Below, in pieces: positions 32,198-63,881 of a DNA stretch of 64,000 nucleotides (within the stretch, counting starts at the first letter, position 1; each line of letters begins with the position of its first letter). Position numbers and translations under genes: made by a program. The notes beneath the pieces are model-generated. The model was given only the letters and a program-made list of their open reading frames with translations. It had not been told where the DNA came from and made no database searches. The stretch spans positions 7,261-71,260 of the forward strand of contig JBLNBQ010000061.1 of the NCBI GenBank assembly GCA_050260095.1, given 5' to 3'. Source of the stretch: Chitinophagales bacterium. GTDB taxonomy: Bacteria; Bacillota; UBA5301; DYFA01.

Positions 32198-32441
32198 CGC
32201 GCGCCCAGTGCAAGCCTTCGTCTACTAGCTGGTGAAAGTCCAGCCGGGGTAAGGGCCAAGCCGCCCCGTAGCTGACCACCGGTGGAAGCGAAGTTGTGGG
32301 AGGCCGGCGGGGCGACCCCGCCTCCTACCCGATCGGCGCGTGCGCCGGCAGGTATGCGCCGTCCAGCCAGCGAATATTTCCCTGCGCAGGGAATGGAAGG
32401 TGGCCGCGGTGCAGGGCCGAAAGGCGGGGCTCAGGGCACTG

Positions 32442-47471: not shown

Positions 47472-47594
47472 GCGCGCCACCCTCCTGCCACCATGCAAGG
47501 TTCCTCCAGTGGAGGAATCTTTTATTCTCCGCCGAAAGACAAGCAATCGAGGAATTCTTCTACTTTCCGGTTCGACGGGAAAGGGCGGACGCCG

Positions 47595-48797
47595 ATGCAG
47601 GACCCGGTCGCGGTGCCGCAACCCGGCGGACGGCTGGCCGCGGGTACCAACGGACCCCTGATGCTCGAACGGATCGACGCCGTGATGCACGAGACGGTGG
47701 CGGCGGTTCAGCATGGGAAAGAGAAGATCTTCCAGGTGGGGGATCTGGCGCGGGAAGAACACGCGCGGCTCTCGCAGGACCTGGAAGCTCTCAGAAATGA
47801 ACTCGCCCATCGCACGGTCCACATCGCCGAGTTGGAGCAGAGGGCCCGGCAGGCCCGCACCAGCTTGGCGGAGATCAGCCGCGATTTCAACCACGCCAGC
47901 GAGGAGAGCATCCGCCGCGCCTACGCGACCGCCGAACAGGCCCAGGTCGACCTGTCGGTCGCGCAGGCCCAGGTGGCTGACTTGGTCCGGCGCCGGCAAG
48001 ACCTTGAGGCGCAGCGCCAACGGGTCGCCAACATGATGAGCAAAGCCGAGGAATTGACGACCGCCGTCGGGCTGGCCATCGAGTTCCTCACCGGCCGGAT
48101 TGCCGGGCAGTCATCCACGCTGAGGTATCGCACCAGCGGCATCGGCACGCAGGTCATCAAGGCCCAGGAAGAAGAGCGGCGGCGCATCGCCCGGGAGATT
48201 CACGACGGTCCGGCGCAAGCCATGGCGAACATCGTCCTGCGCGCCGAAATCTGCGAGAAGACCATGGATACCGGCAAGGGCGACCTCAAGGTCGAACTTG
48301 CCGATCTGAAGCGGCTGGCCAAGGACTGCCTGAAGGAGGTCCGCCGGATCATCTTCGACCTGCGCCCCATGACCCTCGACGACCTGGGGCTGGCGCCCAC
48401 CCTCACCCGCTACTGCGAGGAACTCGCCAAACAGGTTCCTTTCCAGATCCGCTTCGTCGTCTACGGCAAGGAGCGGCGCCTCGACGCCGGCGTCGAAGCC
48501 GCCCTGTTCCGCCTCGTCCAGGAGGCCCTCACCAACGCCCGCAAGTATGCGAAGCCCCTCAAGGTGGAGGTCAAGGTCGAGTTCCTCCCGGGCCTGATCC
48601 GCGCCGTGGTCGAGGACGACGGCGTGGGGTTCGACCCGGCCGACCTCCAGCGTCTCCAGGGCAAGAAGGACGAGCACTTCGGGCTGCTAGGCATGCGGGA
48701 GCGGGTGCAGCTCTTCGATGGTGAGCTGACGGTGACCTCGGCGCCGGGCAAGGGGACCACCGTGGTGGCCCAGATCCCGGTGGAAGGGGGGCGTTGA
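47595..48797 (+). CDS. DegS-like cytoplasmic sensor histidine kinase (HisKA_3 + HATPase)
   Basis: DegS sensor-like N-domain (EKIFQVGDLAREEHARL...ISRDFNHASEESIRRAYATAEQAQ), H-box RIAREIHDGPAQAMANI, no TM. ATG 47493 is an alternative start. Confidence 0.7.
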   Translation: MQDPVAVPQPGGRLAAGTNGPLMLERIDAVMHETVAAVQHGKEKIFQVGDLAREEHARLSQDLEALRNELAHRTVHIAELEQRARQARTSLAEISRDFNHASEESIRRAYATAEQAQVDLSVAQAQVADLVRRRQDLEAQRQRVANMMSKAEELTTAVGLAIEFLTGRIAGQSSTLRYRTSGIGTQVIKAQEEERRRIAREIHDGPAQAMANIVLRAEICEKTMDTGKGDLKVELADLKRLAKDCLKEVRRIIFDLRPMTLDDLGLAPTLTRYCEELAKQVPFQIRFVVYGKERRLDAGVEAALFRLVQEALTNARKYAKPLKVEVKVEFLPGLIRAVVEDDGVGFDPADLQRLQGKKDEHFGLLGMRERVQLFDGELTVTSAPGKGTTVVAQIPVEGGR

Positions 48798-48800
48798 GCG

Positions 48801-49472
48801 TTGGCCGGGCACAAGGTGCGCATCCTCGTGGCCGATGACCACGCGCTGATCCGGGAAGGACTCCGCAAGATCCTCGAGTTCGAGGAAGACCTTGAAGTGG
48901 TCGGCGAGAGCGGCGATGGCCCCTCCACCTTGGAACGGGCCCGGCAACTCAAGCCCGACGTGGTGACCCTCGACGTGAGCATGCCCGGGATGAGCGGGCT
49001 GGACGTGGCGCGCGCCCTGCACGAGGAGTTGCCGGGGGTCAAGGTCATCATCCTGACCGTTCACAACGACCAAGACTGCCTGCTGGCGGCGGTCCGCTCG
49101 GGAGGACAGGCCTACCTGCTGAAGGATTCGGAACCGGCGAAGCTCATCGAGGCCATCCGGACCGTCTACCGCGGCGGCACCTTCTTCCCGCCGGAACTCG
49201 TTGGCCACCTCGTCCAGGGCTATCAGAAGGCGACGAGTGAAGTCGCAGCGGCCGGGGAAGCGCTCTCCCGCATCCGCAGCCAGCTGACCGAGCGTGAGAT
49301 CGAAATCCTCAAGCTGATCGCCCGGGGGGCGAACAACCGGGAGATCGCTGACGAGCTGGTCATCTCCGAGAAGACCGTCAAGAACCACGTCAGCAGCATC
49401 CTTCACAAGCTGGAACTCGACGATCGGACCAAGGCCGCGGTCTTCGCCCTCAAGCACCGTCTGGTTGACTGA
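48801..49472 (+). CDS. DegU-like response regulator (REC + LuxR HTH)
   Basis: VRILVADDHALIREG, C-terminal LTEREIEILKLIARGANNREIADELVISEKTVKNHVSSILHKL. Confidence 0.75.
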   Translation: MAGHKVRILVADDHALIREGLRKILEFEEDLEVVGESGDGPSTLERARQLKPDVVTLDVSMPGMSGLDVARALHEELPGVKVIILTVHNDQDCLLAAVRSGGQAYLLKDSEPAKLIEAIRTVYRGGTFFPPELVGHLVQGYQKATSEVAAAGEALSRIRSQLTEREIEILKLIARGANNREIADELVISEKTVKNHVSSILHKLELDDRTKAAVFALKHRLVD

Positions 49473-49612
49473 CCTAGGACCAGAGTCCCAGGGAAATTGA
49501 GTCCACGGGCGGATGGCTTGTCCAGGAAAGCGATGGTACATTTAAGACGAAAGGAGCCTCCGGGGTACGCAGTGAACGGGGGCCAGCAGGCAAGAGAGGG
49601 GAGGTGCCAAAG

Positions 49613-49777
49613 ATGCTGAAGCGGCTTCTCTACGGTGAGGAAGGTCAGGGAATGGTCGAGTACGGTCTTATTATCGCTCTGGTCGCCATCGTCGTCATCG
49701 TGGTCCTGACCACCATGGGCAACAAGCTGAAGGCCACGTTCCAGGGGGTGTCGGACCAGCTCCCCAGCGGTAGCTGA
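49613..49777 (+). CDS. flp: Flp/Fap-family type IVb pilin
   Basis: 54 aa: MLKRLLYGEEGQGMVEYGLIIALVAIVVIVVLTTMGNKL... The G/xxxxEY prepilin motif. GGGGAGG RBS. Too short to appear in the ORF track. Confidence 0.75.
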   Translation: MLKRLLYGEEGQGMVEYGLIIALVAIVVIVVLTTMGNKLKATFQGVSDQLPSGS

Positions 49778-49845
49778 GACCCGGATCCGAAGCAAAGCAC
49801 GGACGCGTGAATAGCGCCCTGACGGGCCAAAAGGAGTGCATCCAG

Positions 49846-50010
49846 ATGTTGAAGCGGCTGCTCCGCGAAGAGGAAGGCCAGGGCATGGTCGAGTACGGTC
49901 TCATCATCGCCCTCGTGGCCATCGTCGTGATCGTCGTCCTCACCACCATGGGCAACAAGCTGAAGTCCACCTTCCAGGGCGTCTCCGACAGCCTGCCGAG
50001 CGGCAGCTGA
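49846..50010 (+). CDS. flp: Flp/Fap-family type IVb pilin (second tandem copy)
   Basis: MLKRLLREEEGQGMVEYGLIIALVAIVVIVVLTTMGNKLKSTFQGVSDSLPSGS, AAAGGAG RBS. Real start inside track ORF 49807. Confidence 0.8.
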   Translation: MLKRLLREEEGQGMVEYGLIIALVAIVVIVVLTTMGNKLKSTFQGVSDSLPSGS

Positions 50011-50115: not shown

Positions 50116-50667
50116 ATGGGTGTGACTCCGGTGCGGATCGTCGTCTTGGCGGGGGTGCTCCTGTACGCAGTGGTCAGTGACGTGCGGACGCGGCGGATCC
50201 CGAACCTCCTTACCCTGCCGGGGATTCTGGCCGGACTAGCATTCTTCGCGGTGGAAGGGGGAGTGCGGGGCCTGCTCACCGGGCTGGCGGGAACCGCCGC
50301 CGGGGTTGCCCTCCTCTTCCTGCCGTTCGCCTACGGCGGGATGGGCGCGGGCGACGTCAAGTTGCTGGCGGTCGTCGGAGCCTTCGGCGGCCCCCGGTTC
50401 GCCTTCGTCTCCTTCCTGGGCGCCGCGCTTTTCGGCGGCGTGGTGAGCGGGTTCGTCCTCTGGCGGGAGGGGCGACTGGGCGCCACGCTCCGCGCCGTGC
50501 TCTGGGGCATCGCCGCCTTCGTCTCGCCGGCCATCCCCTTCATGCCGCTCCCCAAGCGCCCCGAGAACGCCCCCCACGCCGGGCCCTGGCCGGGCATCCC
50601 CTACGCGGTGGCGATCACCGTGGGCACGGTGGCCGGCTGGCTCTGGCAGGCGGGGTGGTTGCGGTGA
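50116..50667 (+). CDS. tadV: Prepilin peptidase TadV/CpaA (A24 family)
   Basis: About 6 TM, SDVRTRRIPN and GMGAGDVKL catalytic Asp motifs. Confidence 0.75.
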   Translation: MGVTPVRIVVLAGVLLYAVVSDVRTRRIPNLLTLPGILAGLAFFAVEGGVRGLLTGLAGTAAGVALLFLPFAYGGMGAGDVKLLAVVGAFGGPRFAFVSFLGAALFGGVVSGFVLWREGRLGATLRAVLWGIAAFVSPAIPFMPLPKRPENAPHAGPWPGIPYAVAITVGTVAGWLWQAGWLR

Positions 50668-51068
50668 AACGGGTGAGGCCCGGCCGGAGCCAGCGGGGGC
50701 AGGCCGTCGTCGAGCTGTCGCTCGTCATCACCGTGTTGCTCCTCTTGGTCCTGGGGCTCCTGGCTTTCGGCCAGATCATGCACGCCTACCTTTCTTTGAC
50801 TTATGCCTCCCGGGAAGGCGCCCGGGCGGCTGCCCTGCAGCATTCCGACGCCGACGTGCGCAGTGCCGTGGCCTCCGCCCTGCCGCCGACGATCCCTCAG
50901 GACGAGGTCACCACCACCATCAGCCCCACCGAAGGGGAGCGCCCCCGGGGGACGCCGGTCACGGTCGAACTGCGGTACCGGATTCCCATCGCCATCCCCC
51001 TCCTCGCCCAGGCCATCGGTCGCCAGGAGATCGTCCTGGTCGGCCGCACCACGATGCGGGCAGAGTAG
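50655..51068 (+). CDS. tadE: TadE-like pilus assembly protein
   Basis: RGQAVVELSLVITVLLLLVLGLLAFGQ TadE-like N-terminus. Confidence 0.65.
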   Translation: MVAVKRVRPGRSQRGQAVVELSLVITVLLLLVLGLLAFGQIMHAYLSLTYASREGARAAALQHSDADVRSAVASALPPTIPQDEVTTTISPTEGERPRGTPVTVELRYRIPIAIPLLAQAIGRQEIVLVGRTTMRAE

Positions 51069-51111
51069 AGGGCAGAGCGCGGGCAAGGTTGCGAAGGGAG
51101 AGGTGAGCAGA

Positions 51112-52077
51112 GTGGGTAAGGGTAGCGACTCGGTTCGGCGCAGCCCAGGCGGGCGCCGGCCGCTCGGAGATGAGCGGGGCCAGGTGCTCGTGCTGCTCGC
51201 CGTCTCCATGGTGGCCCTGCTCGGGTTCATGGCGCTCGTGGTGGACGTGGGGCTGCTCTACGGGCAGCGGGCCCGGGCGATGAACGCTTCCGAGGCGGCG
51301 ACGGCGGCCGGCATGCAGTTCCTGCCCGGCGATCCGGGTGGGGCGGTGGCCACCGCCGTGGACTATGCGACGCGCAACGGCTACCAGCCCGAGCAGGTCA
51401 CGGCCGTGGTCGGACCCGACAACAAGCGGCTGGAAGTGACGATCAAGGTGGACGCGCCGCTCTTCTTCGCCAGGGTGCTGGGGTTCAAGGGCGTGCCCAT
51501 CGGCGCCCGGACGGCGGCGCAGGCGGGGGCGGTTCGCTCCGTGAACGGCGCGGTGCCGCTCGGCGTCGAGAAGCAGGCCTTCGTTTACGGCGCCACCTAC
51601 TACCTCAAGAACTCCCCGGGCTATGGCGGCAGCTACAAGGGCAACTTCGGCGCCTTGGCGCTCGGCGGGCGGGGTGGCAGCACCTACGAGGAGAACCTGG
51701 CTCACGGCTACGACGGCGAACTCAAGGTCGGCGACGTGATCGAAACCGAGCCGGGCAACAAGTCGGGGCCGACTAACAGCGGGATCGCCGAGCGCATGAA
51801 CGCTGACCCCCTCGGCACCTACGAGAGCCACCGGGCCGACTCGCCCCGCATCCTCAAGGTGCCGGTCGTGGAGTGGGGCGCCAAGGGCGGGCGCTCCACC
51901 GCCACCGTCGTCGGGTTCGCCGCCTTCTGGCTCGAGGGCGTCGGCGGCTCCGGGCGGGAGTGCTACGTGAGCGGGCGGTTCATGAGACTGGTGACCTCAT
52001 CGGAAGAGGCCGAGCTGGGCACCGGCGACTACACCACTTACGATTACGGGCTCTACACCTACGATCTGGTCGAGTGA
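51112..52077 (+). CDS. TadG-like/Tad-domain pilus-associated protein
   Basis: ERGQVLVLLAVSMVALLGFMALVVDVGLLY (Tad N-terminal domain), Gly/Tyr-rich C-terminus. GTG 51112 within track ORF 50803. Confidence 0.55.
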   Translation: MGKGSDSVRRSPGGRRPLGDERGQVLVLLAVSMVALLGFMALVVDVGLLYGQRARAMNASEAATAAGMQFLPGDPGGAVATAVDYATRNGYQPEQVTAVVGPDNKRLEVTIKVDAPLFFARVLGFKGVPIGARTAAQAGAVRSVNGAVPLGVEKQAFVYGATYYLKNSPGYGGSYKGNFGALALGGRGGSTYEENLAHGYDGELKVGDVIETEPGNKSGPTNSGIAERMNADPLGTYESHRADSPRILKVPVVEWGAKGGRSTATVVGFAAFWLEGVGGSGRECYVSGRFMRLVTSSEEAELGTGDYTTYDYGLYTYDLVE

Positions 52078-52104: not shown

Positions 52105-53724
52105 ATGCCAGGAAGGCGCATGACGGAATGGTCCAAGGCACTTCGCGGCCGCCCGGCGGCCGTTCTGCTTCTCCTGGCGCTCAGTATGGCAATGGCTGGA
52201 TGCGGCGGAGGTCCCACCGCCGGTTCGGGAACCACCGGCCGGCTGACCGGAAAGGTGACGGTCAGCACGCCCGACGGGCCGGCCCTGGCGGCGAGCGTCA
52301 AGGTCGACGGCACGGTGTACCAGGCGGTGGGCGGGACCTACCTCACCAACTACCTCGCCTACGGCACGCACACGATCACCGTCGGCGCCCCCGGCTATCA
52401 GACCCAGACGAGCGGCGTCAACCTGGCCCAGGCTTATTTGCGGCTCGACTTCGCCTTGAGCCAGGTGCCCGACACGACGGCGCCCACACTTGCCGGGACC
52501 ATGCCCGAGGCGGGGACCACCGGCGTGGACCGCAACACCAAGATCGTGATCACTTTCAGTGAACCCATGAACCAGACCACTGTGACCTCCGCCTTAAGCC
52601 TCTCGCCCGCCGTCCCGCTGCTTTTCAGCTGGGAGGACGACAGTCACCTGACGGTCACCCTCGGCCGGACGCTGGCGGCCGACACCGTCTACACCGTGAC
52701 CGTCGGCCCGGGCGCGCGGGACCGCGCCGGCAACGCGCTGGCGAACCCGGGAAGCTTCAGCTTCACCACCGGGACGGCGGTGGGCGGCGACGGGCGGATC
52801 GCCTTCACCAGCGACAAGACGCACCTGAACAAGGTCTACCTGATGCCGGATCAGCCGTTGGCGGCGGCCACCCCGCTGCTGCCCGACCAGAAAGAGGACC
52901 AGGAACCGGCCTGGTCGCCCGATGGCGTCCGGCTTGTCTTCACCTCCCGGCGCGGCAACCCCTTGGTCACGCAGTTGTTCGTGACCCGGCTCGACACGCC
53001 CAGCCCGGCGCAGGTCATCCCCGGGAGCGTCTATCAGGAGGCGGAGCCGAAGTGGTCGCCGCTGGGCGGGTGGATCGCCTTCAGTTCCATCCGCAACCAG
53101 GTCGAGGGCGACTGGGACATCTTCATCGTGCCCGTGGACGAGCGGGGGGTGGCCACCGGCAGCCCCCGGCAGGTGAACAAGGATCCGGGCGGAATCTATG
53201 GAACGTCCTGGGAGGCGGCGCCCGAGTGGTCGCCCGACGGCACGGTGCTCCTCTTCTCGTCGGACCGGACCGGGAAGCGGCTGATTTACGGCGTGGACGT
53301 GCAGGACCAGGGCGGGAAGGTCGGGGAAACCGCCGGGCTGACAGCCACCTGCCTCACCCCCGACGGCGAGCGGGAAGATGAGCCGGCCTGGTCGCCGGTG
53401 CCCTCGCCCGACGGCACTTGGCGGGTGGCGTACGTCTCCGAGCGCGGCGATACGCCCAACTGGGATCTCTGGCTCATGGACGTCGCCGTCTCCACCGACG
53501 CGGGAGGACACCGCGTGGTGACCGCCCGCGGCCACCGCCAGTTGACCAACTCGCCGGCCAACGAACACAAGCCGGTCTGGTCGCCCGATGGGAACTACAT
53601 CCTGTTCGTCTCGGAAGACGTGACCGGAACGCACCTGCATCGCATAGGCGCTGACGGCACCGGCGAAATCTCGTTCACCACCGGGTTCGCCAAAGAGGGC
53701 GGCCCCGCCTGGTCGTCGCGGTAG
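52105..53724 (+). CDS. Lipoprotein with carboxypeptidase-regulatory-like and Ig-like domains plus a TolB-like (PD40) beta-propeller
   Basis: Lipobox LSMAMAG-C, DTTAPTL...ITFSEPM Ig-like segment, at least 5 repeats of ...PAWSPDG.../EPKWSP/APEWSPDG/KPVWSPDG typical of TolB-like propellers. Confidence 0.55.
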   Translation: MPGRRMTEWSKALRGRPAAVLLLLALSMAMAGCGGGPTAGSGTTGRLTGKVTVSTPDGPALAASVKVDGTVYQAVGGTYLTNYLAYGTHTITVGAPGYQTQTSGVNLAQAYLRLDFALSQVPDTTAPTLAGTMPEAGTTGVDRNTKIVITFSEPMNQTTVTSALSLSPAVPLLFSWEDDSHLTVTLGRTLAADTVYTVTVGPGARDRAGNALANPGSFSFTTGTAVGGDGRIAFTSDKTHLNKVYLMPDQPLAAATPLLPDQKEDQEPAWSPDGVRLVFTSRRGNPLVTQLFVTRLDTPSPAQVIPGSVYQEAEPKWSPLGGWIAFSSIRNQVEGDWDIFIVPVDERGVATGSPRQVNKDPGGIYGTSWEAAPEWSPDGTVLLFSSDRTGKRLIYGVDVQDQGGKVGETAGLTATCLTPDGEREDEPAWSPVPSPDGTWRVAYVSERGDTPNWDLWLMDVAVSTDAGGHRVVTARGHRQLTNSPANEHKPVWSPDGNYILFVSEDVTGTHLHRIGADGTGEISFTTGFAKEGGPAWSSR

Positions 53725-53740: not shown

Positions 53741-54583
53741 ATGCGCAACCGACGACTGCTCCTGCTCCTGGCGCTTGGCTCCGGGCTTCTGACGGCGGTG
53801 ATGGTCTTTTTCTACACCGCCTCCGTGAACAAACGGGCGAGCCAGCCGGCGTTCAAGATGGTGACGGTGGTGGTGGCGCGCACGCCGATCCCGGCCCGCA
53901 CCTCCATCCTCCCCGCCATGCTGGACGTGAAGAGACTGCCCGAACCGGCGGTCCTCCCGAACTACGTGCGCAGCGAAAGCGAGGTCGTCGGGGCGGTGAC
54001 CCGGGACGCGCTGGTGGCCGGGGAGCCGGTGCTCAAGGACCGGCTCTGGCCGAAAGGCACCCAGCCGGGGCTCACCTTCGCCATTCCCGCCGGCAAACGG
54101 GCCGTGACGGTGGCGGTCAACGAGGTGGTGGGGGTGGCCGGCTTCATCAAGCCGGGCGACCTGGTGGATGTCCTGGGGACCTTCGAGAAGGAACTCCTCG
54201 GCGCCGACACCACCGCGACGGTGCTCCAGGCCGTTCAGGTGCTCGCCATCGCCCAGAAGACGAAAGACGAGGGGAAGGACGAGGCGAAGGTCTCGACCAC
54301 CGTCACGCTCGCCGTCACCTTGGAAGAGGCGCAGAAGCTGACGCTGGCGGAGGAGCGGGGCAAGCTGCGGCTCGTCCTGCGCCCGGCGGGGGGAGTGGCC
54401 GACCTGGCCAAGCCGAAGCCGGCTACCGCCGGAGACTTGATCGGGGCGCCGCTCCGGAGCGCCCCGGCGGCCCAGCCCGCCCCCGCCCCGACCCCGCCCA
54501 AGCCGGCCGTCCGGGTTGACTTGTCCCGCCACACGGTCGAGGTCTTCCGGGGCTCCCGCCGCGACACGGTCGAGGTCCAGTAG
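53741..54583 (+). CDS. cpaB: Flp pilus assembly protein CpaB/RcpC
   Basis: N-terminal TM, SAF-like and RcpC regions (GDLVDVLGTF...LAVTLEEAQKLTLAEERGKLRLVLR). Confidence 0.75.
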   Translation: MRNRRLLLLLALGSGLLTAVMVFFYTASVNKRASQPAFKMVTVVVARTPIPARTSILPAMLDVKRLPEPAVLPNYVRSESEVVGAVTRDALVAGEPVLKDRLWPKGTQPGLTFAIPAGKRAVTVAVNEVVGVAGFIKPGDLVDVLGTFEKELLGADTTATVLQAVQVLAIAQKTKDEGKDEAKVSTTVTLAVTLEEAQKLTLAEERGKLRLVLRPAGGVADLAKPKPATAGDLIGAPLRSAPAAQPAPAPTPPKPAVRVDLSRHTVEVFRGSRRDTVEVQ

Positions 54584-54596
54584 GAGGTTGAAGAGC

Positions 54597-56306
54597 GTGC
54601 AGAAGAACAGGCGCCGTTTCCTGAAGACCGTCTTACTCCTGACCCTCGTGCTGCTCTTCGGCAACACGGTCCCCATCGCGGCCGGGGACGAACCGACGCT
54701 GGTCGTGGCGGTCGGCGAATCCCGAATCATAGGCGTGAAAGACCTCGACCGGGTGGCGATCGCCGATCCCAACGTGGCCGACGTGGTGGTCGCCTCCGCA
54801 AGCGAGATCCTCATCAACGGGAAACAGCCGGGTGCCACCAGCCTGCACCTGTGGGAGAAGACCGGGCGGCGGTCGTTCGTCATCCGGGTGGAGGAAGACG
54901 AGACCCTCGCCCGGCAGATCGCCGAGGTGATCGGCGATCCGGGCGTCAAGGTCCGGCTCATCAAGGGGTCGATCCTGCTGGAGGGGACGGTCGCCGATTA
55001 CGCGGCGGTGGCGAGGGCCGAGAAGATCGCCCGGGCCTACAGCGACAAGGTCGTGAACGTGCTTAAGTCGGAGAAGCCGCCCGAGGCGAGCCCGGCCGAG
55101 GTCAGAGCGGAAGCCGAGGCGCGGGCGAGAGCCGAGGCGGAGGCGCGGGCCAAGGCGGAGGCGGAGGCCAAGGCCAAGGCAGAGTCGGAGGCGAAGGCGC
55201 TGGCCGAGAGTGAAGCCAAGGCGAAGAGCGAGGCGGAACTCAAGGCCAAGCAGGAGGCGGAGGCCCAGGCGGCCGCCGCGGAACGCCAGAGGAAGGCCGA
55301 CGCCCTGGCGGCGCTGCCCGGCCAGGTGGAGGCCGCCATCGGGGCGCCCACCGTGAAGGCCCGGCTCTTGGGCGATGTCCTCCTGCTGGAGGGATCGCTC
55401 CCCGAACAGAAGGACGTCGAACGCGCCACCGGCATCGCGACCGCCCTCTCCACCGGTCTCGTGAGCAAGGTCGCCGTCTATCTGACCCTGGCGCCGGTGG
55501 AGCCTCCGCAGGTGCTGCTCCAGGTCCAGGTCGCCGAGGTGTATCAGGATGCCCTGAACAAACTGGGGATCGACTGGGGCGACTTCCAGGGCACCAACGA
55601 ACAGAAACAGTTCATCCCGGGGGAGCAGTGGCTGGGCGAGAACATGGTCACGGGCGTCATCGAGCGGGCGACCTCGCTTGTCGGCCGTATCGATGCCCTG
55701 CTCAAGGATGGTACCGCCAAGCTCCTGGCCGCCCCCTCTCTGCTCACCCGCAGCGGTAAGCAAGCGGATTTCATGGCCGGTGGCGAGATTCCGGTGGTCG
55801 TGTACAGCAAAGACGGCTACGTCATCTACTGGAAGGAGTACGGCGTCAAGTTGTCGATGACGCCGGAGGTCCAACCGAGCGGACGGATCACGGTTCATCT
55901 CAAACCGGAAGTCTCGACGCTCGACTGGGCAAACGGGTCCCGGGTCAACAACGTCTTGATGCCGGCCTTGAAAGTCCGGAGGGCCGAGACAGACGTGGAC
56001 CTCAGAGACAACGCAACCCTAGTTATCGGCGGTCTCATGAACCAGGAAGACGCCCGCAACCTCGAAGGCGTCCCCCTGCTCTCCAAGCTGCCCATCATCG
56101 GCCGGCTCTTTTCGAGCAAGGGCTTCCAGAGCGGGCGGACCCAATTGGTCATCTTCGTCACGCCCAGGCTGATCAAGGACGGCGGCAGCCCCAAGCCGGG
56201 CGACATTACCTCACCGGCGCTTCACCCGGAGACCCCGGGGGTGGAGCCGCCCGCGGCCAAAGCCCCCGTCCCGGCGCCGGCCGCCGGAGAGCGCTCCAGC
56301 AATTAG
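54597..56306 (+). CDS. cpaC: Tad pilus secretin CpaC/RcpA with an Ala/Glu/Lys-rich repeat insertion
   Basis: Signal peptide and a C-terminal secretin domain (GGEIPVVV...GVPLLSKLPIIGRLFSS...LVIFVTPRLI). Insert AEARARAEAEARAKAEAEAKAKAESEAKALAESEAKAKSEAELKAKQEAEAQ at about 55085-55310. GTG 54597 follows an AGGAGG RBS. Confidence 0.75.
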   Translation: MQKNRRRFLKTVLLLTLVLLFGNTVPIAAGDEPTLVVAVGESRIIGVKDLDRVAIADPNVADVVVASASEILINGKQPGATSLHLWEKTGRRSFVIRVEEDETLARQIAEVIGDPGVKVRLIKGSILLEGTVADYAAVARAEKIARAYSDKVVNVLKSEKPPEASPAEVRAEAEARARAEAEARAKAEAEAKAKAESEAKALAESEAKAKSEAELKAKQEAEAQAAAAERQRKADALAALPGQVEAAIGAPTVKARLLGDVLLLEGSLPEQKDVERATGIATALSTGLVSKVAVYLTLAPVEPPQVLLQVQVAEVYQDALNKLGIDWGDFQGTNEQKQFIPGEQWLGENMVTGVIERATSLVGRIDALLKDGTAKLLAAPSLLTRSGKQADFMAGGEIPVVVYSKDGYVIYWKEYGVKLSMTPEVQPSGRITVHLKPEVSTLDWANGSRVNNVLMPALKVRRAETDVDLRDNATLVIGGLMNQEDARNLEGVPLLSKLPIIGRLFSSKGFQSGRTQLVIFVTPRLIKDGGSPKPGDITSPALHPETPGVEPPAAKAPVPAPAAGERSSN

Positions 56307-56326
56307 CGTGAGGCGGGGTGGAGAAG

Positions 56327-57565
56327 ATGGCAGAACAGAGGCGGAAGCTCACCGTTCTGGTGGTGGACGACTCGGCGGAGGCCCGGGAGAACATCCGCAA
56401 ACTCCTGCGTTTCGATGACGAGATCGAGGTGGTTGGCGAGGCCGAGAACGGGCTGGCGGCCTTGGACAAGGCCAAGGACCTGCATCCCGACGTCATCCTC
56501 ATGGATATCAACATGCCGGTGATGGACGGCATCACGGCGACCGAGCGCCTCTCCCTCGACTGCCCGGAGAGCAGCATCGTCATGATCTCGGTGCAGGGCG
56601 AACAGGAGTACCTGCGGAAGGCGATGATGGCCGGCGCCCGGGAGTACCTGACCAAACCCTTCGCCGGCGACGATCTGGCCAACACCATCAAGCGCGTCGC
56701 CGAGCTGGAAGGGAAGCGCCGCCAGCGGCGGCAGGTGGAGCAGGGAGCCGTCGCGCCGGAGGGGAAAGTGATCACGGTCTTCAGCGCCAAGGGCGGGGTG
56801 GGCAAGACCACCCTGGCCGCCAACCTGGCGGTGGCCCTGGCCAAGGAGGCCAAGGCCCGGGTGGCGTTGGTCGATCTCGACCTTCAGTTCGGCACGGTGG
56901 CCGTCCTCATGGATGTCAACCCGGGCCGCACCATCGCCGAGCTGGTCCGGGAGAAGGAGATCGACGCCGAACTGGTCTCCTCCTACCTGGTCGACCACGC
57001 CAGCGGGGTCCGGATCCTGCCTTGCCCGCTCCGGCCGGAGCAGGCCGAGACGGTGAACGCCGGCCACGTCGAGAGGATTCTCGGCACCCTGCGGAAGATG
57101 GCCGACTTCATCATCGTGGACACCCCGCAGTCCTTCAGCGAGACGAGCCTGGTCGCCCTGGACACGGCCGATGTGATCCTGCTCCTGGCTACTCTGGAGC
57201 TGCCGGCGGTCAAGAACGCCAAGCTCGCCCTCGATGTCATGCTGTCCCTCAAGTATCCTCCGGAGAAGATCCGGCTGGTGATCAACCGCTACGCCGACGA
57301 CATCGGGATCCCCCGGGAAGACCTGGAGAAGAGTCTTAGGTTCCCGGTCTCGGCGCGCATCCCCTCCGACGGGCGGGTCGTGGTCCTGTCCGTCAACAAG
57401 GGGATCCCGTTCTACGTCTCCGAACCGGGGGCCAAGGTTTCGCAGGCGGTGAGAGACCTCGCCTTGAACCTGGCCGGCAAGGGCGCGCAGGAGGCGGCGG
57501 CCACCGGAGAGGCGGAGGCGGCCAAGCCCAGGTTTTCGCTGGGAGGGCTCCTCGGGCGGGGCTAG
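56327..57565 (+). CDS. cpaE: CpaE/TadZ: N-terminal response-regulator receiver domain fused to a ParA/MinD-like ATPase
   Basis: LTVLVVDDSAEARENI...DVILMDINMP (REC with phospho-acceptor Asp) then SAKGGVGKTTLAANLA deviant Walker A. Confidence 0.75.
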   Translation: MAEQRRKLTVLVVDDSAEARENIRKLLRFDDEIEVVGEAENGLAALDKAKDLHPDVILMDINMPVMDGITATERLSLDCPESSIVMISVQGEQEYLRKAMMAGAREYLTKPFAGDDLANTIKRVAELEGKRRQRRQVEQGAVAPEGKVITVFSAKGGVGKTTLAANLAVALAKEAKARVALVDLDLQFGTVAVLMDVNPGRTIAELVREKEIDAELVSSYLVDHASGVRILPCPLRPEQAETVNAGHVERILGTLRKMADFIIVDTPQSFSETSLVALDTADVILLLATLELPAVKNAKLALDVMLSLKYPPEKIRLVINRYADDIGIPREDLEKSLRFPVSARIPSDGRVVVLSVNKGIPFYVSEPGAKVSQAVRDLALNLAGKGAQEAAATGEAEAAKPRFSLGGLLGRG

Positions 57566-57612
57566 ATCCGGGGCGGCTTCGCAGGCAAGAGCTGGGGAGG
57601 GAGGGCTGACAC

Positions 57613-58998
57613 ATGTCGCTTCTGGCCCGCATGGAAAGAGAGAAGCAGCAAGGGCAGGCGGAGGGCGCGGATCGACCGGAGCGGCCGGGCAAGGGTTCCG
57701 CCGCGGCGCAGCCGGTGGTCCAGGATCCCCACAAACGCCTGAAGAACCTGGTCCACGAGAAACTCGTCGCGGAGCTGGACCCTAAGCTGATCGAGCGGCT
57801 CGACGGCGGGGATCAGTCGGATGAGGTGCGGGCGGCGATCGAGGCGGTCATCGCTGAAGTGTTGGACGCCGAGGCGCCCAACATGACGCGCACCGACCGG
57901 CAGGCGCTGGTGACGGAGATCATCGACGAGGTGCTGGGGTTCGGGCCGATCAACGGCCTGCTGAACGACCCCAACATCTCCGAGGTCATGGTCAACGGCC
58001 CGCGCCAGGTGTACATCGAACGGAAAGGGAAGCTGGTCTTAACCGACGTAGTCTTCCGGGACAACAACCATGTGATGCACGTCATCGAAAAGATCGTGGC
58101 TCCTCTGGGGCGCCGGATCGACGAGTCGTCGCCGATGGTCGACGCCCGCCTGCCCGACGGCTCGCGCGTGAACGCCATCATCCCGCCGCTCTCCCTGGTG
58201 GGGCCCTGCATCACGATCCGCAAGTTCTCGAAAGACCCGCTGCAGATCAAAGACCTGATCCGCTTCGGGTCCCTGAGCGAACAGATGGCCTGGTTCTTGG
58301 AGGCGTGCGTCAAGTCGCGGCTCAACATCGTCGTCTCGGGCGGGACCGGGTCAGGCAAGACGACCACCCTGAACGTGCTCTCCTCCTTCATTCCCGAGGA
58401 CGAGCGGATCGTCACCGTGGAGGACGCGGCGGAGCTGCAGCTCCGGCAGGACCACGTCGTCTCGCTGGAGTCGCGCCCGCCCAACATCGAGGGGAAGGGG
58501 GCGGTGCACATCCGCGACCTGGTGCGGAACTGCCTCCGGATGCGCCCCGACCGCATCGTGGTCGGCGAGGTGCGCGGCGGCGAGGCGCTCGACATGCTGC
58601 AGGCGATGAACACCGGCCACGACGGGTCGCTCACCACCGGCCACGCCAACAGCCCTCGCGACATGCTGGCCCGCCTGGAGACGATGGTGCTGATGGCGGG
58701 CATGGAGTTGCCGGTCAAGGCCATCCGGGAGCAGATCGCCTCTGCGGTGGACCTCATCGTGCAGCAGTCGCGCCTTAGGGACGGCAGCCGCAAAATCACC
58801 CACATCACCGAGGTGCAGGGCATGGAGGGCGAGATCATCACCCTTCAGGACATCTTCGTCTTCGAACAGCGCGGGGTCGACGAGACCACCGGCAAGATCG
58901 TGGGACGCCATAAGCCGACCGGCATCCGCCCCAAGTTCATCGACAAGTTCTACAACGCTGGCATCCAGGTGCCGCCCGACCTCTTCGTGGCGGACTGA
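57613..58998 (+). CDS. cpaF: Tad pilus ATPase CpaF/TadA (VirB11-family)
   Basis: GGTGSGKTTTLN Walker A, DRIVVGEVRGGEA, and MNTGHDGSLTTGHANS His box. Confidence 0.9.
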   Translation: MSLLARMEREKQQGQAEGADRPERPGKGSAAAQPVVQDPHKRLKNLVHEKLVAELDPKLIERLDGGDQSDEVRAAIEAVIAEVLDAEAPNMTRTDRQALVTEIIDEVLGFGPINGLLNDPNISEVMVNGPRQVYIERKGKLVLTDVVFRDNNHVMHVIEKIVAPLGRRIDESSPMVDARLPDGSRVNAIIPPLSLVGPCITIRKFSKDPLQIKDLIRFGSLSEQMAWFLEACVKSRLNIVVSGGTGSGKTTTLNVLSSFIPEDERIVTVEDAAELQLRQDHVVSLESRPPNIEGKGAVHIRDLVRNCLRMRPDRIVVGEVRGGEALDMLQAMNTGHDGSLTTGHANSPRDMLARLETMVLMAGMELPVKAIREQIASAVDLIVQQSRLRDGSRKITHITEVQGMEGEIITLQDIFVFEQRGVDETTGKIVGRHKPTGIRPKFIDKFYNAGIQVPPDLFVAD

Positions 58999-59018
58999 CC
59001 GGAAAGGAGGAAAGCCGC

Positions 59019-60008
59019 GTGGTTTGGCTGATCGCCGTCTTCGCCTTCATCGCCGCGACCGCCTTCATGCTGCTCCTTTTCTCCGCGCCGGCGGCCGACC
59101 ACAAGCGGATGCGGGAACGGCTGCGCCGTTTCGTCGAGGAGGCGCCCGTGAGCCCGGCCGAAGCGGCGCTCATGGATGAGGCCCGGCGGCGGGGGAAGGT
59201 GGACAAGACGCCCCTGCGGCAACTCCTGAGGGTCGTCAGCCGGGCGTTCGACGCCAAGGCGCCGGCCAAACGCCTTCAGACCGAGTTGGAGCGGGCCGAC
59301 ATCCTGCTCAAGGGCTCCGAGTTCATGGTCATCCAGTTCCTGGTCGCCGGGGCGTTGGCTCTGGCCGGAATCATCATCACCAAGGGAAACCTGCTCGCGG
59401 CCTTGGCTGGGCTGGGAGTGGGCTGCCTCTTGCCCCGCACGTACCTGAAGCGGCGGCAGGCGTCCCGCCAGAAGGCGCTCGGGGGGCAGGTGGCCGAGTC
59501 GCTCACCGTCATCTCGAACTCGCTCAAGGCCGGGTACTCCTTCCTCCAGGCGGTCGAAATGGTGTCGAAGGAGATGCCGCCGCCCATCTCCGTGGAGTTC
59601 GGCCGCCTGATCCGGGAGGTCTCCTTAGGCGTCTCGACGGAGACCGCACTCGAAGCGCTGGCGCAAAGGTCGGGGAACGACGACCTCGACCTGGTCATCA
59701 CCTGCGTGCTGATCCAGCGCCAGGTCGGCGGCAACCTCTCCGAGATCCTGGACACGATCGCGCACACCATCCGGGAGCGCATCCGCATCAAGGGCGAGAT
59801 CAAGACGTTGACGGCGCAGGGACGGTTCTCCGGCATGGTCGTCTCCCTTCTGCCCTTTGCCCTGGGCGGGATGATCTGGGCGATCAACCCCCAATACGTG
59901 AACCAGCTTTTCACTCACCCCCTGGGCCAGAGCATGCTGGTCTTCGCACTCATCTCCGAGGTGATCGGGGCACTGGTCATCCGGAAGGTCACCGATATCG
60001 AGGTGTAA
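59019..60008 (+). CDS. tadB: TadB inner-membrane platform protein (T2SSF domain)
   Basis: GspF-like cytoplasmic domain flanked by TM segments. Confidence 0.8.
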   Translation: MVWLIAVFAFIAATAFMLLLFSAPAADHKRMRERLRRFVEEAPVSPAEAALMDEARRRGKVDKTPLRQLLRVVSRAFDAKAPAKRLQTELERADILLKGSEFMVIQFLVAGALALAGIIITKGNLLAALAGLGVGCLLPRTYLKRRQASRQKALGGQVAESLTVISNSLKAGYSFLQAVEMVSKEMPPPISVEFGRLIREVSLGVSTETALEALAQRSGNDDLDLVITCVLIQRQVGGNLSEILDTIAHTIRERIRIKGEIKTLTAQGRFSGMVVSLLPFALGGMIWAINPQYVNQLFTHPLGQSMLVFALISEVIGALVIRKVTDIEV

Positions 60009-60011
60009 GCC

Positions 60012-60944
60012 ATGTTGCCCCTAGCTATCGCAGCGATGGCGTTCGTGACGGTCAGCCTCGTGCTCTTCGTGGCCTTGGGCGGGGTGGAGGACGATCGCCA
60101 GCGGATCGCCCGCCGTCTGGCGCAACTCGACTCGCTCGAAGGTCCCGCCTACAGCGAGCGGGACAAGGAACTCCGCGTCCCTCTGGTCACCCGGCTGACC
60201 CGGCCGGTGGTGGCGGAACTGGCTCGCCTGGTGGGCCGGTTCACCCCCAAGGGGATGCGGGAAGACATCCGCAAGCGTCTGGCCGCCGCCGGGAACCCCG
60301 GCGGGATGCAGGTCCAGGACTTTCTGGCCTTGAAGGGCCTTCTCTCGCTCGCGCTGCCGCTCGGCCTCTTCCTGCTCCTGGTGCGGGCCAACCCCACCAC
60401 GGCAGCCTTGCTGGCGGCGGTGGGGTTCGGCTTCGGCAACATCCTGCCCGACCTCCTGATCAAGTCGGCCCTGCAGAACCGGCAGAAACAGATCCAGAAG
60501 GCGCTCCCCGATGTCCTCGACCTGCTGACCGTCAGCGTGGAGGCAGGGCTGGCCTTCGACTCCGCCATCGCCAAGGTGGTGGAGAAACTGAAGGGGCCGC
60601 TGGCCGAGGAGTTCACCCGGATGCTCCAGGACATCCGCATGGGCATGCCCCGGCGGGACGCGCTCCGGGAGGTCTCGAACCGAACCGACGTGGCCGACCT
60701 GAACACCTTCATCTCGGCGCTGATCCAGGCGGACACCCTGGGCGTAAGCATCAGCAACGTCTTGCGCATCCAGTCGGAGCAGATGCGATACAAGCGGAAG
60801 CAGCGTTCGGAGGAGGCAGCCATGAAAGCCCCGATCAAGATGCTCTTCCCGCTCATGATCTTCATCTTCCCGACGATCTTCGTCATCCTGCTCGGCCCCG
60901 CCGCCATCCAGGTGATCAACACGTTCAGCCAGATGGGCAAGTAG
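60012..60944 (+). CDS. tadC: TadC inner-membrane platform protein (T2SSF domain)
   Basis: GspF-like domain, C-terminal TM. Adjacent to tadB. Confidence 0.8.
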   Translation: MLPLAIAAMAFVTVSLVLFVALGGVEDDRQRIARRLAQLDSLEGPAYSERDKELRVPLVTRLTRPVVAELARLVGRFTPKGMREDIRKRLAAAGNPGGMQVQDFLALKGLLSLALPLGLFLLLVRANPTTAALLAAVGFGFGNILPDLLIKSALQNRQKQIQKALPDVLDLLTVSVEAGLAFDSAIAKVVEKLKGPLAEEFTRMLQDIRMGMPRRDALREVSNRTDVADLNTFISALIQADTLGVSISNVLRIQSEQMRYKRKQRSEEAAMKAPIKMLFPLMIFIFPTIFVILLGPAAIQVINTFSQMGK

Positions 60945-60949
60945 AGGTA

Positions 60950-61321
60950 ATGGTCATGAAACGGTTCAGCGTCACCAACGCGACCACGGGGGCCTGCCTG
61001 GCCGACCGGGCAGCCCTGGCAGGGAGTTTCTTCGCCCGGCTGCGCGGGCTGCTCGGACGGGAGCGGCTCGAGGAGGGGGACGGCCTCATCCTCCGCCCGT
61101 GCAACAGCGTGCACATGTTCTTCATGCGCTTCGCCATCGATGTGGTCTTCCTGGACCGGGACGGGAAAGTGGTCGGGCTCTCCTACCAGCTTCCGCCGGG
61201 GGCCGTGAGCCCGCTCTTTCCCCGGGCCCGGCAGGCCGTCGAGCTTCCCGCGGGCACGCTGGGCCGCACCGGCACCAAGCTCGGCGACGTGCTGGTGCTC
61301 AGGGCTTGCGCGCCGGATTGA
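60950..61321 (+). CDS. DUF192-domain protein
   Basis: LRGLLGRERLEEGDGLILRPCNSVHMFFMRFAIDVVFLDRDGKVVGL matches the DUF192 core. Starts are possible at 60950 and 60956. Confidence 0.55.
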   Translation: MVMKRFSVTNATTGACLADRAALAGSFFARLRGLLGRERLEEGDGLILRPCNSVHMFFMRFAIDVVFLDRDGKVVGLSYQLPPGAVSPLFPRARQAVELPAGTLGRTGTKLGDVLVLRACAPD

Positions 61322-63144: not shown

Positions 63145-63881
63145 ACGGGCTCGGCGGGAACTTGCTCGACCTGTTGTGGCCGGCGCCGCCGCTCTGCCCG
63201 GGCTGCTGGCAACCGGCTCCCCGCACGGAGCCGGGACGCCTGTGCCGCAGGTGCCGGGAGCGGCTGGTCGTGCTTCGCCCGCCGGTCTGCCGGCGGTGCG
63301 GCCGTCCGGCGGGCGGAGAGGACGAGTGCCGGCAGTGCGCCGGCCGCCCGCGGACCTTCGTGGAGGCCCGGGCGGCGGGCCCGTATGAGGGCGAACTCAA
63401 GCGGCTCGTTCACCGCTTCAAGTTCCGGCGGGAACTGGCGCTCAGGGAGCCACTCGGGCTGCTCCTGGCCGAGACCTTCCGGGCCTGGCCCGAACTCCGG
63501 GCGGCCGAGCTTCTGATTCCGGTGCCGCTCTCGGCCGAGCGACGGGCAGAGCGGGGCTTCAACCAGGCCGAAGAACTGGCCCGGGTGGCCGGTCGGGCGT
63601 TGCGGCTTCCCGCCGTGATGGATGCCCTCGTGCGGGAGCGAGGTGGCCCGGCGCAGTCCCGCCGCAGCCGGCATGACCGGGAGCGCGGCGCGGCCGGGGC
63701 CTTCCGGGTGGCCCGCCCCGGAGCGCTGGCCGGCGCCAGGGTCCTGCTGGTCGACGATGTGCTCACCACCGGGGCGACCGCGGAGGCCTGCAGCCAGGCG
63801 ATGCTGAAGGCGGGGGCCTCGCGGGTTTCGGTGTTGACCTTGGCGACCACCCTGGCGCACGGCCTGGGGGATTCGCCGTAA
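63141..63881 (+). CDS. comFC: ComFC-like phosphoribosyltransferase-family competence protein
   Basis: Double Zn-ribbon N-terminus (CPGC...CRRCRER...CRRCGRP...CRQC) and PRTase motif VLLVDDVLTTGAT. GTGA overlap with comFA. Confidence 0.75.
   Translation: MNGLGGNLLDLLWPAPPLCPGCWQPAPRTEPGRLCRRCRERLVVLRPPVCRRCGRPAGGEDECRQCAGRPRTFVEARAAGPYEGELKRLVHRFKFRRELALREPLGLLLAETFRAWPELRAAELLIPVPLSAERRAERGFNQAEELARVAGRALRLPAVMDALVRERGGPAQSRRSRHDRERGAAGAFRVARPGALAGARVLLVDDVLTTGATAEACSQAMLKAGASRVSVLTLATTLAHGLGDSP

What the first reader, a model, noticed from the sequence alone, without database searches (positions are those of the whole stretch)
52105..53724. TolB-like beta-propeller lipoprotein embedded in the Tad pilus operon
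Between the tadG-like gene and cpaB lies a 539-aa lipoprotein combining a carboxypeptidase-regulatory-like domain, an Ig-like domain and a multi-bladed PD40/TolB-type propeller (repeated 'AWSPDG' blades). This position in Tad loci is usually occupied by the small pilotin CpaD/TadD. Here it may act as an OM- or peptidoglycan-interacting pilotin for the secretin.
Basis: partly seen in the sequence, partly recalled or inferred. Interest (0 to 1): 0.5.

Follow-up and report, generated by a model that had tools for sequence, protein, structure and literature searches.

The report
Propeller lipoprotein in Tad pilus operon
A 539-residue lipoprotein with two Ig-like domains and a TolB-type six-bladed propeller is a conserved, clade-specific extra gene in the Tad pilus operon of a small uncultured group of outer-membrane-bearing Bacillota; what it does is untested, and it is modestly novel, not a surprise.

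Summary

It is not an insertion. At least five further independent loci (27-48% identity) carry an orthologue in the same tadG-X-cpaB-secretin slot. All ten family members I have, including three known only as protein sequences, keep the lipobox.

The family is tiny: four full-length representatives among the 150 best hits from 1.84 billion. None of 80 generic PD40 loci has Tad genes nearby. Sister Tad operons with the same gene order lack it and leave the slot empty, so it is a lineage-specific addition and does not replace CpaD or TadD.

It is not TolB: no TolB_N domain, 97 bits against a cut-off of 343, and no tol-pal context. An outer-membrane pilotin role is disfavoured, because published surveys find the Lol pathway practically absent from diderm Terrabacteria.

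My best reading, which is inferred, is a membrane-tethered periplasmic scaffold on the secretin/CpaB conduit, probably anchored in the inner membrane.

The parts
52105..53724 (+). Gene X: a 539-aa lipoprotein with a beta-sandwich, a Big_5 Ig domain and a six-bladed PD40 propeller
   Evidence: ORF and translation; Pfam; AF2 model with pLDDT 88.5; orthologues in the same slot
52105..52203 (+). Signal peptide and lipobox (aa 1-33; Cys33 codon at 52201-52203)
   Evidence: The sequence reads LSMAMAG|C. G32 and C33 are invariant in all 10 family members. AF2 places a helix at 17-29 followed by a disordered Gly-rich linker.
52234..52458 (+). N-terminal beta-sandwich (aa 44-118), CarboxypepD_reg/PEGA-like
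   Evidence: Pfam gives 2e-4, below the cut-off here; the L088 orthologue is above the cut-off. AF2 predicts an all-beta domain with pLDDT 85-96.
52471..52770 (+). Big_5 bacterial Ig-like domain (aa 123-222)
   Evidence: Pfam PF13205 at 5e-23, covering the full profile length
52792..53721 (+). Six-bladed PD40 (TolB-type) beta-propeller (aa 230-539). It carries a family-specific blade-4 loop (aa 399-416, with invariant G407, E408, G411) and a long blade-5 hairpin (aa 454-479).
51103..52077 (+). TadG-like minor pilin gene directly upstream. The start is approximate, and the stop is 27 nt before X.
   Evidence: Pfam Tad and Tad_C; the start was inferred by alignment to orthologues
50655..51068 (+). 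TadE-like minor pilin gene
   Evidence: ORF; the orthologous genes carry PF07811 TadE
50116..50667 (+). Prepilin peptidase (CpaA/TadV)
   Evidence: Pfam Peptidase_A24 at 2e-20
49604..50010 (+). Two tandem Flp pilin genes (49604-49777 and 49807-50010)
   Evidence: The ORF translations have the Flp-type motif G-MVEYGLI; orthologues hit PF04964
53741..54583 (+). CpaB/RcpC alignment-complex gene, starting 16 nt after the X stop
   Evidence: Pfam RcpC at 8e-32 plus SAF; RBS and start codon
54597..56306 (+). Tad secretin (CpaC/RcpA-like) with an N-domain, one BON domain and the secretin domain. It has a type-I signal peptide, not a lipobox.
   Evidence: Pfam; corrected GTG start with a GGAGG upstream
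56318..60944 (+). REC-ParA (TadZ/CpaE), CpaF ATPase, TadB and TadC
   Evidence: Pfam
47493..49472 (+). DegS/DegU-like two-component system directly upstream of flp, conserved in all related Tad loci
   Evidence: Pfam; synteny

Best explanation
X is a dedicated, vertically inherited accessory component of the Tad (type IVc) pilus machine in one small uncultured clade of LPS-bearing Bacillota.

It is co-transcribed with tadG and cpaB. It is exported by Sec and lipidated at Cys33, which tethers it to a membrane facing the periplasm. That membrane is most probably the cytoplasmic membrane, because diderm Terrabacteria are reported to lack Lol.

A short Gly-rich linker and two rigid beta-sandwich/Ig domains form a stalk. 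A distant orthologue has three such domains. The stalk holds a TolB-type six-bladed propeller away from the membrane.

The propeller has no catalytic partner domain, so it acts as a protein-binding platform. The likely binding surface is the conserved, family-specific insertions of blades 4-5. The likely partner is the periplasmic conduit formed by the CpaB ring and the secretin N-domains, which X would stabilise or position.

Functionally this resembles PilP or GspC in related machines, CpaI or CpaD in Caulobacter, and the propeller lipoprotein BamB on BamA.

What is shown: the architecture, the lipobox, operon membership, conservation and clade restriction. What is inferred: which membrane anchors it, which partner it binds and what effect that has.
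For: Operon coupling:
- The gaps are 27 nt and 16 nt, each with an RBS.
- There is no promoter-like or terminator-like site on the + strand between tadG and cpaB.
- GC3 is 0.89, the same as its neighbours.

Conservation:
- Orthologues sit in the same slot in L001, L002, L004, L007, L088 (36-48% identity) and L090 (27-31% identity; it has an extra fn3 domain and an extra blade).
- The lipobox is kept in all 10 members.

Specificity:
- None of 80 generic PD40 loci has Tad genes nearby.
- Only 4 full-length representatives appear among the 150 best hits from 1.84 billion proteins.

Structure:
- The N-terminal Ig pair resembles the stalk domains A/B of membrane-anchored LdtMt2.
- No enzymatic domain was found.
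- Blades 4-5, with their family-specific loop and hairpin, are the most conserved part.

Literature:
- Lol is practically absent in Terrabacteria, and no outer-membrane lipoproteins are known in Veillonella (10.1101/2021.05.31.446380; PMC10665443).
- Tad machines elsewhere use non-homologous accessory periplasmic parts: CpaD, CpaI and TadD (PMC13170226; PMC10499894).
- CpaB/RcpC forms the ring that binds the secretin N-domain (PMC12307814).

Weak hint: the closest X-less sister operons have secretins with 3-7 BON repeats, or an extra N-domain+BON protein. X-bearing loci have 0-2 BON repeats.
Against: - No interaction was tested.
- X is the fastest-evolving gene of the operon, at 42-48% identity against 60-82% for the core genes. 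That fits a peripheral or even surface-exposed protein as well as a scaffold.
- The link between BON repeats and X rests on one evolutionary event. Anaerosporomusa also contradicts it: its secretin is short (416 aa, no BON) and it has no X.
- Lol status was not checked in these particular genomes, and Halanaerobiales do have LolA (PMC5007114).
- Sister Tad operons work without X, so it is not a core requirement.
Confidence: 0.45

Rival explanations
1. Outer-membrane pilotin or peptidoglycan-anchoring partner of the secretin. X would be sorted to the inner leaflet of the outer membrane and would escort or stabilise the CpaC multimer, as TadD or CpaD do.
For: - The lipobox is conserved.
- The operon has no TPR lipoprotein of the TadD/CpaO kind and no CpaD-like gene.
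- Pilotin folds and binding modes are not conserved between systems (PMC10499894), so a propeller is not excluded.
- The secretin itself has only a type-I signal peptide.
Against: - Lol and outer-membrane lipoproteins are reported as practically absent from diderm Terrabacteria (10.1101/2021.05.31.446380; PMC10665443).
- Sister operons with homologous secretins have no X and no substitute lipoprotein in the operon.
- X is 539 aa with a stalk, unlike the compact pilotins.
- No peptidoglycan-binding domain (LysM, OmpA, AMIN, SPOR) was detected.
Confidence: 0.15
2. Partner of the minor pilins: a priming-complex, tip or adhesin factor analogous to the propeller protein PilY1 of type IVa pili. X would bind TadE/TadG at the base or tip of the Flp filament, or act as a surface adhesin.
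For: - X follows tadE-tadG directly.
- PilY1 is a precedent for a propeller protein encoded with minor pilins (PMC11525922).
- X is the fastest-evolving gene of the operon, as is typical of exposed adhesins.
- Big_5 and PD40 domains are common in surface proteins.
Against: - An invariant lipobox argues for permanent membrane tethering.
- There is no pilin-like N-terminus.
- The propeller is TolB-type PD40, not the PilY1/PilC fold.
- The closest sister operons have TadE and TadG orthologues (L092 TadG aligns throughout) but no X.
Confidence: 0.15
3. A functionally unrelated periplasmic PD40 lipoprotein that merely rides in the operon. It would have been fixed by chance in the ancestor of the clade.
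For: - PD40/Big_5 proteins are extremely common: 291,731 hits at E<=1e-3.
- The gene is absent from sister Tad operons.
- No Tad-specific motif could be identified.
Against: - The position and tight spacing are kept across lineages that have diverged to 27% identity, even while the domain composition changed.
- None of 80 other PD40 loci is near Tad genes.
- No independent transcription signals were found.
Confidence: 0.1

Closest known systems
TolB (Tol-Pal system periplasmic protein)
   Different: - No TolB_N domain.
- A lipobox instead of a cleaved type-I signal peptide.
- Two Ig-like domains at the N-terminus.
- NCBIfam TolB equivalog score 97 bits against a cut-off of 343.
- No tolQRA or pal genes nearby.
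TadD/CpaO, the TPR lipoprotein pilotin of Tad secretins
   Same: A lipoprotein encoded in a Tad locus.
   Different: TadD is a small all-helical TPR protein that binds the C-terminus of RcpA and is anchored in the outer membrane (PMC10499894). X is all-beta, 539 aa, has no TPR hit, and lives in a lineage reported to lack Lol.
CpaD and CpaI of the Caulobacter Tad machine
   Same: Lineage-restricted, non-core periplasmic or lipoprotein accessories that decorate or bridge the secretin and the CpaB ring (PMC13170226).
   Different: CpaD is a 225-aa OmpA-like outer-membrane lipoprotein encoded after cpaC, and CpaI is a small periplasmic protein. X shows no sequence or fold similarity to either and sits at a different operon position.
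PilP (T4aP) and GspC (T2SS) inner-membrane-tethered secretin connectors
   Same: Membrane-tethered periplasmic proteins that link the inner-membrane platform to the secretin N-domains (PMC10499894 discussion). PilP is an inner-membrane lipoprotein (own knowledge).
   Different: They use a single small HR beta-domain, not a propeller, and there is no homology. In Tad systems the connector role is already filled by CpaB/RcpC (PMC12307814).
BamB and leptospiral Lp49 (propeller lipoproteins)
   Same: Lipid-anchored beta-propeller scaffolds. Lp49 also combines an Ig-like domain with a propeller, and it appears among the Foldseek hits (3bws).
   Different: BamB is an 8-bladed outer-membrane lipoprotein of the Bam complex (own knowledge). 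Lp49 has no known function. Neither is linked to a pilus system.

Membership tests
TolB (Tol-Pal) | N-terminal TolB_N alpha/beta domain that contacts TolA | tested here: not met
   No TolB_N hit in Pfam. In the AF2 model the N-terminal half is two beta-sandwich domains.
TolB (Tol-Pal) | Six-bladed PD40 propeller | tested here: met
TolB (Tol-Pal) | Score above the curated equivalog cut-off (TIGR02800) | tested here: not met
   97.4 bits against a cut-off of 343.15
TolB (Tol-Pal) | Encoded in a tolQRA-tolB-pal operon | tested here: not met
   The neighbours are tad genes. No OmpA-family/Pal or TolQ/R/A genes were found among the annotated window genes.
Bacterial lipoprotein | Sec signal peptide ending in a lipobox [LVAM][ASTG][GA]C | tested here: met
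   The sequence is MAMAG|C33. G-C is invariant in 10 family members. Actual lipidation is not testable here.
Pfam Big_5 (PF13205) | Score above the gathering cut-off | tested here: met
   82.2 bits against 23.6
Pfam CarboxypepD_reg (PF13620) | Score above the gathering cut-off | tested here: inconclusive
   22.1 bits against 32.3 in the window protein. The L088 orthologue scores 34.8. AF2 shows a beta-sandwich.
TadD/CpaO pilotin family | TPR fold that binds the secretin C-terminus | tested here: not met
   No TPR hit; the model is all-beta
Secretin pilotin (functional class) | Outer-membrane localisation and a requirement for secretin targeting or assembly | not testable with these tools
   This needs fractionation and genetics. 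The literature argues against Lol in diderm Terrabacteria (10.1101/2021.05.31.446380; PMC10665443).
Tad (type IVc) pilus gene cluster component | Conserved co-linear position inside the flp-tadE-tadG-cpaB-cpaC-cpaE-cpaF-tadBC operon in independent genomes | tested here: met
   Same slot in L001, L002, L004, L007, L088 and L090. It is absent from the sister loci L092, L094, L095, L096, L097, L098 and L099, so it is clade-specific and not a core component.

The most novel reading that the evidence does not exclude
X is a previously unrecognised structural subunit of the Tad machine in Lol-less diderm Bacillota. It would be an inner-membrane-anchored lipoprotein that rises on an Ig stalk and rings the CpaB/secretin conduit with TolB-type propellers. 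In that role it would do the job handled elsewhere by Lol-dependent pilotins or outer-membrane lipoproteins (TadD, CpaD), or by expanded BON-repeat secretin N-termini. If so, it would show how trans-envelope pili are built in Terrabacteria that have no outer-membrane lipoproteins.
Probability: 0.2. Interest if true: 0.6.

Novelty: new variant of a known kind. Interest (0 to 1): 0.35.

Why it matters
How secretin-based machines are assembled and held across the envelope in diderm Bacillota is largely unknown. These bacteria have an OmpM-tethered outer membrane and apparently no Lol pathway or outer-membrane lipoproteins.

A conserved, operon-embedded propeller lipoprotein gives a concrete candidate for a lineage-specific solution. 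It also adds to the evidence that Tad machines recruit non-homologous accessory parts in different lineages.

The impact is limited in three ways. The family is confined to a handful of uncultured genomes. Its domains are generic. Closely related Tad operons function without it.

Tried and rejected
- **Genome-collection scan with a CpaB alignment.** It returned only two loci, one of them already known. The window's own genome was not found, so no clean taxonomy came from it.
- **Metagenome scan with the X alignment.** It gave 80 loci, all matching only at propeller level (26-34% identity). None had Tad genes nearby. This helps as a specificity control but added no orthologues.
- **Profile search of 1.84 billion representatives.** The top of the list is flooded by giant Big_5-repeat proteins. 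Only P0001, P0003, P0263 and P0282 are true full-length family members.
- **afdb50 fold search.** The library was not available.
- **Idea that the long secretin in X-less loci contains a fused X-like part.** Rejected: the extra ~450 aa are BON repeats.
- **Idea that X compensates for short secretins.** Weakened, because Anaerosporomusa has a 416-aa secretin without BON repeats and without X.
- **True TolB.** Rejected.
- **Recent horizontal insertion.** Rejected on composition and synteny.
- **Twin-arginine export.** No motif is present.
- **Literature searches.** Searches for TolB-like or propeller proteins in Tad/Flp loci, and for Tad pili in Limnochordia, found nothing.
- **Taxon labels of the MAGs.** Chitinophagales, Betaproteobacteria and Aneurinibacillus are inconsistent with the AtpD and CpaB relatives and were not trusted.

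Full report
**1. Observation**

The ORF at 52105..53724 (+) is real and encodes 539 aa. GGGAGG lies 8 nt upstream of the ATG.

Pfam finds three domain types:
- PD40 repeats at 3e-34.
- A full-length Big_5 Ig-like domain at aa 123-222 (5e-23).
- A weak CarboxypepD_reg/PEGA-like domain at aa 47-118. It scores 22 bits, below the 32.3-bit cut-off. The L088 orthologue passes with 34.8 bits.

The N-terminus is a Sec signal peptide ending in the lipobox MAMAG|C33. Five W-S-P-x-G blade motifs are present.

An AlphaFold2 model built on a 59-sequence alignment is confident (mean pLDDT 88.5, pTM 0.69). It shows, in order:
- a signal helix;
- a disordered Gly-rich linker;
- a beta-sandwich at 44-118;
- an Ig domain at 129-222;
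- a six-bladed propeller at 231-536.

**2. Genomic setting**

On the + strand the gene sits inside a complete Tad (type IVc) pilus operon:

| Gene | Coordinates |
|---|---|
| DegS/DegU-like two-component system | 47493-49472 |
| Two Flp pilins | 49604-50010 |
| Prepilin peptidase | 50116-50667 |
| TadE | 50655-51068 |
| TadG | ~51103-52077 |
| X | 52105-53724 |
| CpaB/RcpC | 53741-54583 |
| Secretin | 54597-56306 |
| REC-ParA (TadZ/CpaE) | 56318-57565 |
| CpaF | 57613-58998 |
| TadB | 59019-60008 |
| TadC | 60012-60944 |
| DUF192 | 60950-61321 |

The secretin start was corrected from the ORF list to the GTG at 54597.

The gaps flanking X are 27 nt and 16 nt. No promoter-like or terminator-like site lies on the + strand between tadG and cpaB. 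X has GC 0.69 and GC3 0.89, like its neighbours.

The first 26 kb of the window carry LPS synthesis and export genes: LpxA/C/I/B, MsbA and LptA/B/C/F/G. The nearest AtpD relatives are a 'Bacillota bacterium' MAG at 93% identity and a JGI metagenome protein at 90%. Named Firmicutes follow at about 77%. The host is therefore an uncultured, high-GC, outer-membrane-bearing Bacillota.

**3. Is it a conserved part of the operon?**

Yes, within one clade. A word-indexed search found only five full-length relatives, at 37-48% identity. All other hits matched only the propeller or only Big_5.

Contexts could be retrieved for P0003, P0004 and P0005. In each, the orthologue sits between tadG and cpaB in an otherwise co-linear region running from the rml genes to comFA.

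Searching from the CpaB side gave three more cases:
- L007, at 44% identity.
- L088, 535 aa.
- L090, a much more distant orthologue of 667 aa at 27-31% identity. It keeps the lipobox and the slot but has an extra fn3 domain and an extra blade.

A filter-free profile search of 1.84 billion representatives added only two more full-length members, P0263 and P0282. Both have a lipobox.

All ten members keep G-C at the cleavage site.

**4. How far does it extend?**

Not far. Sister operons have the same order (DegSU, flp, tadE, tadG, cpaB, secretin, cpaE, cpaF, tadBC), and their CpaB is 42-55% identical to the window's. All of them lack X.

| Locus | What follows tadG | Secretin |
|---|---|---|
| L092/L093 | cpaB directly | 1001 aa, 7 BON |
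| L096 | cpaB directly | 1022 aa, at least 4 BON |
| L098 | cpaB directly | 791 aa, at least 3 BON |
| L094 | cpaB directly | 279-aa N-domain+BON protein, then 599 aa |
| L095 | cpaB directly | 471-aa protein with no Pfam hit in the secretin slot |
| L097 ('Limnochordia bacterium' MAG) | a second TadG-like gene and a 112-aa unknown | cut by the contig end |
| L099 (Anaerosporomusa, Negativicutes) | rearranged locus, no X | 416 aa, no BON |

None of 80 generic PD40 loci from metagenomes has Tad genes nearby. X is therefore a lineage-specific addition to the operon. The slot is not one normally filled by CpaD or TadD. In Caulobacter, cpaD follows cpaC (PMC13170226).

**5. What it is not**

*Not TolB.*
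- There is no TolB_N domain.
- The TolB equivalog model scores 97 bits against a cut-off of 343.
- It has a lipobox instead of a type-I signal peptide.
- No tol or pal genes are nearby.

*Not a TadD/CpaO or CpaD homologue.* There is no TPR or OmpA-like hit, and the fold is all-beta.

No catalytic domain accompanies the propeller.

**6. Mechanism (inferred)**

The architecture is a lipid anchor, a flexible linker, a stalk of two or three Ig-like domains, and a propeller. That is the plan of a membrane-tethered binding module held at a set distance from the membrane. The N-terminal Ig pair resembles the stalk domains A/B of membrane-anchored LdtMt2.

Conservation is even across the domains, at 46-47%. 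It is highest in blades 4-5, at 52-55%. Those blades carry a family-specific loop (aa 399-416; G407, E408 and G411 invariant; low pLDDT) and a long hairpin (aa 454-479). This is a plausible partner-binding surface.

Published surveys find Lol practically absent from Terrabacteria, and no outer-membrane lipoproteins are known in Veillonella (10.1101/2021.05.31.446380; PMC10665443). Halanaerobiales do have LolA (PMC5007114). On that basis the default expectation is retention in the cytoplasmic membrane.

In Tad machines the CpaB/RcpC ring binds the secretin N-domain (PMC12307814). Different lineages add non-homologous accessories, namely CpaD, CpaI and TadD (PMC13170226; PMC10499894).

I therefore favour this model: X is an accessory periplasmic scaffold that docks on the CpaB/secretin conduit, or possibly on the minor pilins, and stabilises or positions it.

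One weak hint supports it. The closest X-less operons have secretins with 3-7 BON repeats or an extra N-domain+BON protein, whereas X-bearing operons have 0-2. This rests on a single evolutionary split, and Anaerosporomusa contradicts it.

**7. Rivals**

- *Outer-membrane pilotin.* For: the lipobox; no other candidate pilotin in the operon; pilotin folds are not conserved. Against: the Lol argument; sister secretins manage without X.
- *PilY1-like partner of TadE/TadG, or an adhesin.* For: adjacency to the minor pilin genes; the fastest evolution in the operon, at 42-48% against 60-82% for core genes. Against: the invariant lipobox; a different propeller family.
- *Unrelated hitch-hiker.* Against: positional conservation down to 27% identity.

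**8. Verdict**

The finding is a real, conserved, clade-restricted extra component of a known system, built from generic domains, with no experimental or literature precedent in Tad loci.

- Novelty: a new variant of a known kind.
- Interest: moderate to low (0.35).
- What would raise it: evidence that X replaces Lol-dependent pilotins in Lol-less diderms.

Noticed in passing
window 636-26000: A large LPS/outer-membrane gene cluster lies on the same contig as the Tad operon. It includes LptF/G (636-1793 and 22591-23691), LptC-like (3187-4947), LptA-like (4944-5627), LpxC (8641-10014), LpxA (10640-11446), LpxI (11595-12422), LpxB (12419-13555), MsbA-like (14805-16556) and an LptD_N-like gene (20516-21841). 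This shows the host is a diderm Bacillota.
   Followed up: partly
L092:8878-11883, L096:4502-7570, L098:7871-10246, L094:7951-10609, compared with window 54597-56306: The number of BON repeats in the Tad secretin varies from 0 to 7 between closely related operons. One locus splits off a separate N-domain+BON protein. Long multi-BON secretins occur in the nearest X-less loci. Anaerosporomusa, though, has a short BON-less secretin and no X.
   Followed up: partly
window 47493-49472 and 56318-57565: A DegS/DegU-like two-component system lies directly upstream of flp in every related Tad locus, with at least a DegS-like kinase next to flp even in the rearranged Anaerosporomusa locus. In addition, TadZ/CpaE carries an N-terminal receiver domain. 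Together these suggest that this Tad system is controlled by phosphorelay.
   Followed up: no
window 49604-50010: The window has two tandem, nearly identical Flp pilin genes, where the related loci have one.
   Followed up: no
window 60950-61321: A DUF192 gene directly follows tadC in all X-bearing loci. It is followed by comFA/comFC-like competence genes at 61441-63881.
   Followed up: no
window 54516-54597 and 50803-51103: The mechanical ORF starts are too long for two genes. The secretin most likely starts at the GTG at 54597, which has a GGAGG 9 nt upstream and is followed by a signal peptide. TadG most likely starts near 51103, judged from alignment to orthologues.
   Followed up: yes
source records of P0001, L002/L006 and L007: The NCBI organism labels of the MAGs carrying this locus are Chitinophagales, Betaproteobacteria and Aneurinibacillus. 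These conflict with the gene content and with the AtpD and CpaB relatives, all of which are Bacillota. The labels are probably binning or labelling errors.
   Followed up: partly
L090:5982-7985: The distant orthologue of X (667 aa) has gained an fn3 domain in the stalk and an extra PD40 blade. It lacks the blade-4 GG-x-x-GE loop. So stalk length and blade number are plastic within the family.
   Followed up: partly
window 32340-34208: A 622-aa ORF has a weak Porin_4 match (4e-6) and lies between the ATP synthase and O-antigen ligase genes. It could be an OmpM-type outer-membrane porin or tether. I did not check it for an SLH domain.
   Followed up: no
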